A stretch of 13,480 nt of DNA, from NCBI GenBank assembly GCA_046761065.1, contig JBHIFL010000096.1:1-13480 (forward strand), given 5' to 3'. This DNA is from Candidatus Heimdallarchaeota archaeon (lineage in GTDB: Archaea > Asgardarchaeota > Wukongarchaeia > Wukongarchaeales > JBHIFL01). Positions 7,126 to 10,296 of this stretch are shown here, piece by piece (the stretch's first letter is position 1; each line of letters starts with the position of its first letter). The notes beneath the pieces were generated by a model. The model saw only the letters and a program-made list of their open reading frames with translations. It did no database searches and was not told the DNA's origin. Position numbers and translations under genes: made by a program.

Positions 7126-7427
7126 TATTTTCACCTTGATGATGAAAAAATTTATGATATTTAGTAGAAGGAATTGTACCACCAAATATTTAAAGATTTA
7201 AGGGTTGTGAAAATTCAGCAATCTGAGATCATCTCTCCTTAAAAATGTCTTGGAATCATTTTAGGTGTAATTTCACTCCCTTTATTCCCCCTGTGCCTTT
7301 AACCGCGTTTGGGAACATTTTAGGAGTTTTATTTAATTTTTAACCCTTTAGAAAATCTGGAAAAAATATTAAAACCACAAGTGCTTGGTTCGTGATTCTT
7401 ACAATTTGTCAATAAATAGATGATGTA

Positions 7428-8796: not shown

Positions 8797-9421
8797 CTTT
8801 TTTTACTCCATTTTAGGTGATCAACAACTCTGCAATATAAGCGTGATGCTACATATGGATAAGATGAGTGACTTATTGGATTTAAAAATACTCAATTAAG
8901 AAAGTTTGAGATAGTTTCCCATGGTTTCAGGATAGCATAGAACGTGTAAACTGTAGAATCGTTTATATAATTGTTTGAAATGTGAAAAATTCATATTGAA
9001 ATTAAATTTCATTGATTCTAAGAGTACACTTACTAGGTGTAACCCTACCCGCTCTATTCCTTACATGTCGAACTTTTTCAGGCCTACTGTTCGAAATATG
9101 CTGGAAATTTCATTTATATCTATAATAATGAGAATTTGGATAATTTAATGAAAAGTATTCATTCATTTTATGACTATTATATATAATATAATATGATATT
9201 AATCCTTGATCAAAAACGCTGAACTGTAGAATGTAAGCATTAAAAGTCACTCATTTTTTATACGAACAATAAATTGTTGAGTTTAATTCAAATGAAGGAA
9301 GGATGTATGTTTTAAAAGAGATTTTAATAACTTCAATAGGGAAAATAAAGGGCAGTGACAGAAAGTTAGCGTAGATAATTACGAACATTGAAATGTAAAT
9401 CTATCTAGAGATAAGCGGAAG

Positions 9422-9462
9422 ATTCATAAATGAATATACTATAGGCTCATTAACGTGGAGGT
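9422..9462 (+). promoter_or_regulatory. Putative promoter/operator and SD of the Lrp/AsnC RAM-domain gene
   Basis: Palindrome ATTCAT-AA-ATGAAT (9422-9435) overlaps a TATA-like TTCATAAA. A strong SD GGAGGT at 9457-9462 ends 7 nt before ATG 9470. Confidence 0.55.
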
Positions 9463-9469
9463 TATTTTC

Positions 9470-9736
9470 ATGCCAATGGCGTTTGTCTTACTAAACACAG
9501 AGATTGGGTCAGAAGATGCGGTTCTAGAAGAATTGATGAATATCCCTGGAGTCCAAGAAGCATACTGAAGTAGAAGCTCTATCTCAGGCTGAGATTTGGT
9601 CTACGGGGTTTATGATCTCATTGCAAAGATCCAAAGCGATAACATGGATACGTTAAAGAATGTAATTATGACAAAAATAAGGCAGTTGGAAAAAGTTCGT
9701 TCGACTCTTACCATGATTGTCATTGAAAGTAGCTAG
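9470..9736 (+). CDS. Stand-alone Lrp/AsnC ligand-binding (RAM) domain protein (demi-FFRP), interrupted: join(9470..9563,9594..9736), 78 aa
   Basis: Genomic translation is MPMAFVLLNTEIGSEDAVLEELMNIPGVQEAY*SRSSISG*DLVYGVYDLIAKIQSDNMDTLKNVIMTKIRQLEKVRSTLTMIVIESS*. Removing 30 nt gives the typical ...IPGVQEAYLVYGVYDLIAKI...KVRSTLTMIV pattern of archaeal AsnC C-terminal domains, with no other lesion. Confidence 0.88.
9564..9593 (+). other. Candidate 30-nt BHB-type (tRNA-endonuclease-spliced) mRNA intron
   Basis: Outer helix CCAAG 9553-9557 / TTTGG 9595-9599, extendable to 12 of 14 pairs over 9544-9557 / 9595-9608. Central helix AAGC 9558-9561 / GCTG 9588-9591 (3 pairs plus A.G). 3-nt bulges ATA 9562-9564 and AGA 9592-9594. 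Inner hairpin CTGAAGTAGA-AGC-TCTATCTCAG. Cuts after the second bulge nucleotide remove both UGA stops and keep the frame. Confidence 0.8.
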
Positions 9737-9777: not shown

Positions 9778-10296
9778 TCAGTCTTTTGAGGGATTTTGCT
9801 GACTGATCCATAGAAAGGCGGGTTGGACACTTTCTCCCGTTTTTGCACTAGTTTCAAAATACGGAGCTTTCATTGTTTTCGCAAATTTTTCTGCACGTGC
9901 TTTTGAAATTTTTCGTTTTTTTCTCGTTATTAAGTCAATTTTATTCCCGCAAATGGCAAAAGGGATTGTTCCAGCATTTCTTTTCATTTCATCTATCCAA
10001 TAATCGAGTTTCGCGAATGTCACAGGCCGTAATAAATCAAAGACAAGAATTGCTCCAGTAGCACCCTTGTAAAAATTTTGCCGGACCTTTTCATATTTTT
10101 CTTGCCCTCCCAAGTCCCAGATCTGAAAGACAAAAGCTTTATCATCAATTTTCATGTCTTTGCGATACACATCGACTCCAATTGTTGATAGATAATCGGC
10201 CTCAAATTTACCAGTGACGAACCGACGACTTAAACTCGTCTTTCCGACAGCGGGTTCCCCAATCATCGTTATCTTACGTATATATGTATCAGACAT
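9778..10296 (-). CDS. Rab-like small GTPase (Ras superfamily; Asgard eukaryotic-signature type)
   Basis: G1 GEPAVGKT, switch I YLSTIGVD, G3 WDLGGQE, FYKGA, G4 NKID, G5 ETSAK. No C-terminal Cys prenylation motif. Confidence 0.93.
   Translation of the reverse strand: MSDTYIRKITMIGEPAVGKTSLSRRFVTGKFEADYLSTIGVDVYRKDMKIDDKAFVFQIWDLGGQEKYEKVRQNFYKGATGAILVFDLLRPVTFAKLDYWIDEMKRNAGTIPFAICGNKIDLITRKKRKISKARAEKFAKTMKAPYFETSAKTGESVQPAFLWISQQNPSKD

What the first reader, a model, noticed from the sequence alone, without database searches (positions are those of the whole stretch)
9470..9736. Possible splicing-controlled feast/famine regulator, a conceptual parallel to HAC1/XBP1 non-spliceosomal splicing
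Seen in sequence: the unspliced mRNA yields only a 32-aa fragment, so the full protein depends on intron removal. The product has no HTH and is only a ligand-binding/assembly domain. Established: such demi-FFRPs bind amino acids and can hetero-oligomerise with full-length Lrp regulators, and eukaryotes activate HAC1/XBP1 by tRNA-ligase-dependent removal of a non-spliceosomal intron (cut by IRE1, not EndA). Inference: regulator output could be tied to tRNA-splicing capacity or stress. That would be a post-transcriptional switch in a lineage close to eukaryotes. It is an analogy, with no homology claimed.
Basis: inference. Interest (0 to 1): 0.8.

Follow-up and report, generated by a model that had tools for sequence, protein, structure and literature searches.

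The report
Spliced intron in small Lrp-like gene
A 78-residue, DNA-binding-domain-less Lrp/AsnC-type gene of a probable Asgard archaeon is interrupted by a conserved 30-base tRNA-type (bulge-helix-bulge) intron that must be cut out of the mRNA to make the protein, but nothing shows that this splicing is a regulatory switch, and the same genome carries such introns in housekeeping genes too.

Summary
The ORF at 9470 stops after 32 codons. A 30-nt in-frame insert splits an otherwise intact Lrp/AsnC ligand-binding-domain gene with no HTH.

The insert folds as a relaxed bulge-helix-bulge (BHB). Cutting after the second nucleotide of each bulge removes 9564-9593 and gives ...EAY-LVYGVYD..., exactly what close intron-less relatives encode.

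Three related metagenome contigs carry a 30-nt insert at the same site. The helices are kept through compensatory changes, and dN/dS across the exons is 0.04-0.09. So this is not a pseudogene.

The genome encodes a crenarchaeal-type (alpha-beta)2 EndA and RtcB.

The HAC1/XBP1-like switch is untested. No RNA data were available. I confirmed similar short introns in cbf5, rpoA1, uS5 and an ABC ATPase of the same genome. Few tRNA genes are detectable, and most of those have introns. The simplest reading is therefore a constitutively spliced passenger intron.

It is a new member of a known kind: the cbf5-type archaeal pre-mRNA intron. The scan had already noted this stretch in this window, but no look-alike on other DNA.

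The parts
9458..9462 (+). Shine-Dalgarno-like GGAGG, 7 nt before the start codon
   Evidence: Read directly from the sequence. The same motif is present in L035, L184 and L182.
9470..9563 (+). Exon 1: 31 codons plus the first base of the Tyr codon
   Evidence: PF01037 profile positions 1-28. The BHB cut lies after U9563.
9564..9593 (+). 30-nt BHB intron. It holds the in-frame TGA at 9566-9568 and the TGA at 9590-9592.
   Evidence: My motif scan finds it as the only correctly oriented BHB here that fuses the frames. MAFFT places the gap at exactly these columns against intron-less relatives. Three relatives have a 30-nt insert at the same site.
9594..9736 (+). Exon 2: the last two bases of the Tyr codon, 46 codons and the TAG stop
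   Evidence: PF01037 profile positions 30-72. The spliced product is 78 aa and reads ...QEAYLVYGVYD....
9553..9557 (+). Outer (exon-exon) helix, 5' strand CCAAG, pairing with 9595-9599. It extends, with interruptions, to 9544-9551 pairing with 9601-9608.
   Evidence: Pairs are 97.9% kept in the four sequences. G9557-U9595 becomes G-C in the three relatives.
9558..9561 (+). Central 4-bp helix, 5' strand AAGC (exon), pairing with 9588-9591 GCUG (intron). In the window, 3 of 4 positions pair, with an A.G mismatch at 9558/9591.
   Evidence: Pair 2 is A-U in the window and G-C in L182. Pair 3 is G-C in three sequences and U-A in L184. Every sequence keeps 3 of 4 pairs.
9562..9564 (+). 5' bulge AUA. 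The predicted cut is after U9563.
   Evidence: Geometry read from the sequence. The cut position follows the tRNA BHB rule (established knowledge).
9565..9587 (+). Intron hairpin: CUGA:UCAG, an A.C 1x1 mismatch, GUAGA:UCUAU, and loop AGC
   Evidence: 92.5% of cells pair. A9569.C9583 becomes G.U in L035 and G-C in L184 and L182. The distal stem is entirely replaced by a GC-rich stem in L182.
9588..9591 (+). Central helix, 3' strand GCUG
9592..9594 (+). 3' bulge AGA. The predicted cut is after G9593.
9595..9599 (+). Outer helix, 3' strand UUUGG (the Leu UUG codon plus the G of Val)
   Evidence: All four intron-bearing genes use TTG for this Leu. Three intron-less relatives use CTT, CTC or CTG.

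Best explanation
Bases 9564-9593 are a bulge-helix-bulge (tRNA-type) intron inside the coding sequence of a stand-alone RAM-domain (demi-FFRP) gene. The pre-mRNA folds into an exon-exon helix, a 3-nt bulge, a 4-bp helix with one mismatch, a second 3-nt bulge on the other strand, and an intron hairpin. The host's (alpha-beta)2 splicing endonuclease cuts in both bulges and RtcB joins the exons. The result is a 78-codon mRNA whose product reads ...QEAYLVYGVYD.... Unspliced RNA yields only a 32-residue peptide. The intron was most likely gained once in a narrow lineage as part of a genome-wide spread of BHB introns, and it is spliced constitutively. Shown here: the anatomy, conservation, covariation, selection on the protein, and presence of the enzymes. 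Inferred: the cleavage and ligation themselves, and that splicing is constitutive.
For: (1) The insert is exactly 10 codons, at a site where all homologues are continuous.
(2) A correctly oriented BHB sits so that excision restores the frame and gives the residues that intron-less close relatives encode. In this genome a motif of this quality occurs at about 6.6e-5 per position-and-length combination. Only about 4 combinations give this product, so the chance expectation is about 3e-4.
(3) Three relatives (L035, L184, L182) have a 30-nt insert at the same site. 92% of structure cells pair, against 21-53% when partners are slid. Four pairs show double compensatory changes, one of them between exon and intron. 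The distal stem of L182 has a wholly different sequence but still pairs.
(4) dN/dS is 0.04-0.09 between intron-bearing copies, at dS up to 1.9, and both exons stay intact.
(5) TGA is an ordinary stop in this genome, ending 480 of 1629 long frames.
(6) EndA alpha has the Tyr/His/Lys triad and aligns without a gap to the Aeropyrum pernix catalytic subunit, including its loop region. A His-less beta paralogue and one RtcB are also present. Asgard (alpha-beta)2 EndA with the L1 loop is described in PMC5829648.
(7) The same genome has BHB-type inserts that restore conserved motifs in cbf5 (GHAGTLDP), an ABC ATPase (GENGAGKTT), rpoA1 (ITAD|TYDEDG) and uS5.
(8) There is a precedent: cbf5 pre-mRNA splicing in Crenarchaeota with the same enzyme type (PMC2738675, PMC10485636).
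Against: No RNA evidence was available, so the spliced junction has not been seen. The central helix has one mismatch in each of the four sequences, so the motif is relaxed rather than strict. RNAalifold leaves that segment unpaired. Only four sequences support the covariation, three of them close to one another, and the shuffle controls are only moderately strong (10-28 of 500 shuffles reach the observed values). That splicing is constitutive is inferred from context only.
Confidence: 0.78

Rival explanations
1. One reading: the intron is a post-transcriptional switch. Splicing efficiency varies with EndA/RtcB capacity or with stress, so the amount of the RAM-domain protein, and through hetero-oligomers the activity of full-length Lrp regulators, is set by splicing. 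This would be functionally analogous to HAC1/XBP1.
For: The protein needs splicing. The BHB is imperfect in all four lineages (3 of 4 central pairs), which could allow sub-maximal, tunable cleavage. The intron lies only 94 nt into the ORF, so splicing must compete with coupled translation (inference). The genome has seven other PF01037 loci as possible partners, at least five of them in frames long enough for a full-length Lrp. Intron-bearing lineages have one copy at this locus, where intron-less relatives have three tandem paralogues.
Against: No data show conditional splicing. No stress-activated nuclease is evident: the IRE1 KEN domain was not found, although that search had no positive control. 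The same genome has such introns in rpoA1, uS5 and cbf5, and its tRNA genes are heavily interrupted, all of which need constant splicing. The enzyme type is known to accept relaxed motifs (PMC5829648), so the mismatch need not lower efficiency.
Confidence: 0.1
2. The gene is a pseudogene disrupted by a recent 30-nt insertion, and no protein is made.
For: There are two in-frame stops in the window, and no expression data.
Against: The insert is retained in four lineages that differ at dS up to 1.9 with dN/dS 0.04-0.09. There are no frameshifts or further stops in the exons. Structure-preserving substitutions occur in the insert. Leu codon choice in the exon is kept to maintain the outer helix.
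Confidence: 0.03
3. The insert is dealt with during translation. Either TGA is read through or recoded, giving an 88-aa protein with a 10-residue insertion, or the ribosome bypasses the gap as in T4 gene 60.
For: The insert is in frame and contains a hairpin immediately after a stop codon. UAC occurs at 9563-9565 and again at 9602-9604.
Against: The translated insert is not conserved between lineages, whereas the pairing is. The insertion would fall in the middle of a beta-strand segment that aligns without a gap to solved demi-FFRPs. Landing at 9602 would delete the conserved LVY residues. The take-off codon is UUC in the three relatives, which does not match UAU or UAC. TGA is a normal stop in this genome.
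Confidence: 0.03
4. The gene is truly split. A 32-aa N-terminal peptide and a 46-aa C-terminal peptide, the latter starting at TTG 9596, are made separately and assemble non-covalently.
For: TTG at 9596 could serve as a start, and gene callers annotate the 3' piece on its own.
Against: No ribosome-binding motif precedes 9596. TTG is simply the conserved Leu codon. This reading does not explain the conserved 30-nt length or the BHB covariation.
Confidence: 0.02

Closest known systems
cbf5 pre-mRNA BHB intron of Crenarchaeota (Aeropyrum, Sulfolobus; Watanabe 2002, Yokobori 2009, PMC2738675)
   Same: A short intron inside an archaeal protein-coding sequence, with a relaxed BHB fold. The host has (alpha-beta)2 EndA. 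Its distribution is narrow, with gain or loss among close relatives. The window's own genome has a cbf5 intron too.
   Different: A different gene family (a small regulator-type RAM-domain protein, not an RNA-modification enzyme) and a different phylum (Asgard). Splicing has not been shown experimentally here.
HVO_1309 5'-UTR BHB intron of Haloferax volcanii (PMC7714728, PMC10485636)
   Same: An mRNA substrate of the tRNA splicing endonuclease. Its removal affects expression.
   Different: That intron lies in the 5' UTR and is cut by an alpha2-type enzyme. Here the intron interrupts the ORF and carries stop codons.
Archaeal tRNA BHB introns, including the multi-intron tRNA genes of some Asgard archaea (bioRxiv 10.64898/2026.10.13.758758)
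   Same: The same motif geometry, the same predicted cut positions and the same enzymes. After splicing, the exons leave a 5-bp stem with a 7-nt loop, as in an anticodon arm.
   Different: The host RNA is an mRNA. No sequence similarity to other places in the genome was found.
HAC1 / XBP1 unconventional splicing (IRE1 plus Trl1 or RtcB)
   Same: Non-spliceosomal, with protein-enzyme cleavage at stem-loops and ligation by an RtcB-type ligase. The product is a regulator that needs splicing.
   Different: No stress-sensing nuclease is present. EndA recognises a BHB, not twin IRE1 loops. Here splicing repairs the middle of the ORF rather than switching the C-terminal frame. Conditionality is unknown. 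This is an analogy only.
Demi-FFRP / stand-alone RAM-domain proteins (solved: 2ZBC from Sulfolobus tokodaii; 2E1A, 2Z4P and 2CVI from Pyrococcus horikoshii)
   Same: A RAM domain of 75-83 aa with no HTH. The intron-less relative P0004 matches 2ZBC at E 1e-20 over its full length.
   Different: The gene is interrupted by an intron. Ligand and oligomeric partners were not examined here.

Membership tests
Archaeal BHB (EndA-type) intron | Two 3-nt bulges on opposite strands, each 3' of its strand of a 4-bp central helix | tested here: met
   The bulges are 9562-9564 and 9592-9594. The central helix is 9558-9561 pairing with 9588-9591. Orientation is correct, but 3 of 4 central pairs form in each of the four sequences, so the motif is relaxed.
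Archaeal BHB (EndA-type) intron | Flanking helices h (exon-exon) and h' (intron) | tested here: met
   A 5-bp outer helix with extension, and a 10-position intron hairpin. These pair at 98% and 92.5% across the four sequences. RNAalifold predicts both independently.
Archaeal BHB (EndA-type) intron | Excision at the bulges gives a functional mature RNA | tested here: met
   Removing 9564-9593 restores a 78-codon frame identical at the junction to intron-less relatives, reading EAYLVYG.
Archaeal BHB (EndA-type) intron | Structure maintained in evolution (covariation) | tested here: met
   Four pairs show double changes. Slid controls pair at 21-53% against 92%. Only four sequences were available.
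Archaeal BHB (EndA-type) intron | The host encodes a splicing endonuclease able to accept relaxed motifs, plus an RtcB ligase | tested here: met
   EndA alpha (with the catalytic triad) plus a His-less beta paralogue. The best solved match is the A. pernix alpha subunit, and the loop region aligns without a gap. One RtcB is present (PMC5829648).
Archaeal BHB (EndA-type) intron | Spliced RNA and/or excised (circular) intron observed | not testable with these tools
   No RNA run is listed for this DNA.
Demi-FFRP / stand-alone RAM-domain protein | Lrp/AsnC ligand-binding (RAM) domain as the only domain, about 75-85 aa, with no HTH | tested here: met
   Only PF01037 is found, and it covers nearly the whole product. 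The full-length match of a close relative to 2ZBC, 2E1A and 2CVI confirms it.
Demi-FFRP / stand-alone RAM-domain protein | Amino-acid binding and (hetero-)oligomer formation | not tested
   No fold or complex prediction was run. Seven other PF01037 loci exist in the genome.
HAC1/XBP1-type regulated unconventional splicing | A signal-activated endonuclease (IRE1 kinase/KEN RNase) | tested here: inconclusive
   PF06479 was not found in a genome that is 91% complete, and the control set also gave no hit. EndA is a housekeeping enzyme (established knowledge).
HAC1/XBP1-type regulated unconventional splicing | The spliced fraction changes with condition | not testable with these tools
   No RNA data.

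The most novel reading that the evidence does not exclude
Splicing of this intron is rate-limiting and variable. For example, it may compete with coupled translation only 94 nt from the start codon, or depend on EndA/RtcB load in a cell whose tRNAs and core mRNAs all queue for the same enzymes. The dose of a RAM-domain modulator of Lrp-type regulators would then report RNA-splicing capacity. That would be a regulated protein-enzyme mRNA splicing switch in an Asgard archaeon.
Probability: 0.08. Interest if true: 0.8.

Novelty: new member of a known kind. Interest (0 to 1): 0.45.

Why it matters
In the papers I could search, BHB introns inside archaeal coding sequences are documented only for cbf5 of Crenarchaeota, plus one 5'-UTR case in Haloferax (PMC7714728, PMC10485636). 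Here a different gene family in a probable Asgard archaeon carries one, with comparative evidence of long-term maintenance under selection. Together with cbf5, rpoA1, uS5 and an ABC ATPase in the same genome, this points to a lineage in which protein-enzyme mRNA splicing is routine. That bears on how interrupted genes were tolerated in the closest prokaryotic relatives of eukaryotes. It is also a practical annotation problem, because the gene is called as fragments in public databases. The specific switch idea would be important if true, but it currently has no support.

Tried and rejected
(a) No RNA holder was listed for this DNA, so expression and splicing could not be examined.

(b) A strict BHB with boundaries exactly at the stop codons (9566/9595) does not exist. 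The motif appears only with boundaries 9564/9593 and one central mismatch (hand analysis).

(c) Translational bypass: the take-off and landing codons do not match at the position that would give the homologous product, and they differ in the relatives.

(d) The intron sequence has no other copy in the genome; blastn-short finds only 11-16-nt chance matches. Rfam finds nothing in the window, and there are no tRNAs in the window.

(e) A genome-wide count of CDS introns by BHB motif plus ORF fusion failed, with or without helix extension or a codon-usage filter. Correctly oriented and mirror-image motifs pass in equal numbers, so the total number of mRNA introns could not be estimated this way. 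Individual true cases (cbf5, the ABC ATPase and this gene) do appear in the list.

(f) The short database proteins P0012 and P0015 looked like further split genes but are not. L183 has single-base frameshifts typical of long-read assembly, and L185 is an internal-start call.

(g) A motif candidate in rpoA1 at C2:17852-17880 is a false positive, because it lies inside the coding CPGHFGHIELA motif.

(h) An IRE1 KEN-domain search found nothing, but the control set also gave no hit.

(i) The complex prediction with full-length Lrp proteins was not run, because the report makes no binding claim.

Full report
**What is in the sequence**

A frame opens at ATG 9470, 7 nt after GGAGG. It closes at TGA 9566-9568 after 32 codons, and a second in-frame TGA lies at 9590-9592. 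The same frame then continues open from 9596 to TAG 9734-9736.

Read through, the translation matches only Pfam PF01037 (Lrp/AsnC ligand-binding or RAM domain, E 2.6e-12). The first piece covers profile positions 1-28 and the second covers 30-72. Uninterrupted homologues of 76-78 aa occur in 42 of the 60 related genomes searched, and all of the closest ones are continuous. In an alignment with ten of them, the window has exactly ten extra codons between EAY and [ILV]VYGVYD. A close intron-less relative (P0004) aligns over its whole length, without a gap at this point, to solved 75-83-aa HTH-less proteins (2ZBC, 2E1A, 2CVI).

**Is the insert real?**

Contigs assembled separately from four metagenome runs (hydrothermal vent, one study) carry the stretch with no differences at 17-37x depth. 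These may include the source sample, so they exclude an assembly slip but are not independent populations.

**The fold**

By hand, and then with a motif scanner of my own, the only correctly oriented bulge-helix-bulge that fuses the two frames has these parts:
- outer helix 9553-9557 pairing with 9595-9599 (CCAAG:UUUGG, extended with interruptions to 9544/9608)
- 3' bulge 9592-9594
- central helix 9558-9561 pairing with 9588-9591 (three pairs plus an A.G mismatch)
- 5' bulge 9562-9564
- an intron hairpin at 9565-9587

Cutting after the second nucleotide of each bulge, the rule for tRNA introns, removes 9564-9593 (30 nt). It joins GCAU to AUUUGG, giving Ala-Tyr-Leu.

Across this genome, a motif of at least this quality occurs at 6.6e-5 per position-and-length combination, in either true or mirrored geometry. 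Only about four combinations give this product, so the chance expectation is about 3e-4.

**Relatives**

A metagenome scan and a search with the 3' fragment found three further contigs with a 30-nt insert at the same site: L035, L184 (an NCBI MAG) and L182 (JGI). All three show the same gene neighbourhood of KaiC-like ATPase, this gene, a small Ras/Arf-type GTPase and UbiA.

On the four-sequence alignment:
- 92% of the cells of my structure form pairs, against 21-53% when partners are slid by 1-3 columns.
- Four pairs show changes on both sides.
- Central pair 2 is A-U in the window and G-C in L182.
- Central pair 3 is G-C in three sequences and U-A in L184, an exon-intron covariation that costs an Ala-to-Ser change.
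- The A.C mismatch in the hairpin becomes G.U or G-C.
- The distal stem of L182 is a different, GC-rich sequence that still pairs.

RNAalifold independently predicts the outer helix and the hairpin but leaves the central segment open. Each sequence has exactly one mismatch in the central helix, so the motif is relaxed. With four sequences, three of them close, the covariation is suggestive rather than overwhelming (10-28 of 500 shuffles reach the observed values).

**Selection on the protein**

Between intron-bearing copies, dN/dS is 0.04-0.09. The most distant pair has dS of about 1.9, yet both exons remain intact. The gene has therefore been kept functional while carrying an insert with a stop codon.

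TGA is a normal stop in this genome, ending 480 of 1629 long open frames. The insert's translation is not conserved, whereas its pairing is. This rules out a pseudogene and makes read-through unattractive.

Close intron-less relatives (L191, and the tandem triplets in L192 and L193) read ...QEAYLVYGVYD.... MAFFT puts the gap at exactly 9564-9593. These relatives use CTT, CTC or CTG for the Leu codon, whereas all four intron-bearing genes use TTG, which builds the outer helix. In a short-protein tree, the four intron-bearing genes sit in an unresolved cluster with one intron-less sequence. A single gain is not excluded.

**Enzymes**

- One EndA homologue has the Tyr/His/Lys catalytic residues. 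It aligns without a gap to the Aeropyrum pernix catalytic subunit (3P1Z_B, E 7e-41), including the loop region.
- A second paralogue lacks the His.
- There is one RtcB.

This is the (alpha-beta)2 architecture, reported for Asgard and TACK archaea with the L1 loop that gives broad substrate range (PMC5829648; also bioRxiv 10.64898/2026.10.13.758758). It is also the type found in the Crenarchaeota that splice cbf5 pre-mRNA (PMC10485636).

**Context**

Notes from earlier in this scan pointed to other mRNA introns in this genome, and I checked four of them.
- My scanner recovers a strict BHB in cbf5 (C28:25211-25236, minus strand), whose removal restores GHAGTLDP.
- It also recovers one in an ABC ATPase (C73:13137-13191) that restores GENGAGKTT.
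- Reading rpoA1 shows a 31-nt insert between ...ITAD and TYDEDG..., with a 4-bp central helix and flanking helices.
- uS5 is broken after VNISLVQR and resumes at QTDAGRK.

ARAGORN detects only 19 tRNA genes in this 91%-complete genome, 16 of them with an intron. This fits the heavy interruption of tRNA genes described for some Asgard archaea.

**Mechanism and the switch idea**

The best-supported mechanism is EndA/RtcB splicing of the pre-mRNA. Nothing here bears on whether it is conditional, because no RNA run holds the locus. An organism whose RNA polymerase, ribosomal protein uS5, Cbf5 and most tRNAs depend on the same enzymes must splice constantly, so a passenger intron is the simpler reading.

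Some points keep the switch idea alive at low probability:
- The central helix is imperfect in all four lineages.
- The intron lies 94 nt into the ORF, where splicing competes with translation (inference).
- There is a single gene copy at this locus, where intron-less relatives have three.

The HAC1/XBP1 parallel is limited to ligation chemistry and the dependence of a regulator on splicing. No IRE1-like nuclease was found, although that search lacked a positive control.

**Novelty**

In the literature I could search, coding-sequence BHB introns are documented only for crenarchaeal cbf5, with one 5'-UTR case in Haloferax. A 2023 review expects more to be found (PMC7714728, PMC2738675, PMC10485636). 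This is a new member of that kind, in a new gene family and phylum.

Organism assignment rests on three things: the best named relatives (Heimdall- and Hermodarchaeota MAGs), the neighbouring Ras/Arf-type GTPase, and the tool's phylum grouping. I did not verify it with marker genes.

Noticed in passing
G000:C28:25211-25236 (minus strand): The cbf5 gene of the same genome has a 26-nt strict BHB intron (central helix CCUU:AAGG). Excision joins G|AT and restores the catalytic GHAGTLDP motif. The Pfam TruB_N match is cut off at profile position 17 without it.
   Followed up: yes
G000:C73:13137-13191 (plus strand): A 55-nt BHB insert with an 11-bp intron stem interrupts the Walker A motif of an ABC-type ATPase. 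Excision gives ...LLGENGAGKTT... and fuses 40 and 468 open codons.
   Followed up: partly
G000:C2, about 18012-18045 (minus strand): rpoA1 has a 31-nt insert between ...RIITAD and TYDEDGTPI.... It has a GCAG:CUGU central helix, AU|C and AA|A bulges and a GGUGA:UCACU intron stem. The Pfam Rpb1_1 match starts only at profile position 30.
   Followed up: partly
G000:C19, about 7214-7250 (plus strand; L188 about 1480-1516): The uS5 gene is broken after VNISLVQR and resumes in another frame at (K)QTDAGRKSRFK. A palindromic insert of about 35 nt lies between the two parts. My strict scanner did not call it.
   Followed up: partly
whole genome G000: ARAGORN finds only 19 tRNA genes, 16 with an intron, in a 4.4-Mb genome that is 91% complete. 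This suggests many tRNA genes are hidden by multiple or non-canonical introns.
   Followed up: partly
window 8797-9469: A 673-nt stretch without a credible ORF lies between the KaiC-like ATPase gene and the RAM-domain gene. A stretch of the same length is present in L184 and is alignable in L035 at about 80-85% identity. It has no Rfam match. Intron-less relatives (L192, L193) instead have three tandem RAM-domain genes at this locus.
   Followed up: partly
window 9778-10296 (minus strand): A 172-aa small GTPase of the Ras/Arf/Roc type is convergent with the RAM-domain gene and conserved in this position in all related contigs. It is typical of Asgard genomes.
   Followed up: no
L183:2900-3010: A distant homologue that databases list as a 45-aa fragment is broken by two single-base insertions, not by an intron. 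This is most likely long-read assembly error.
   Followed up: yes
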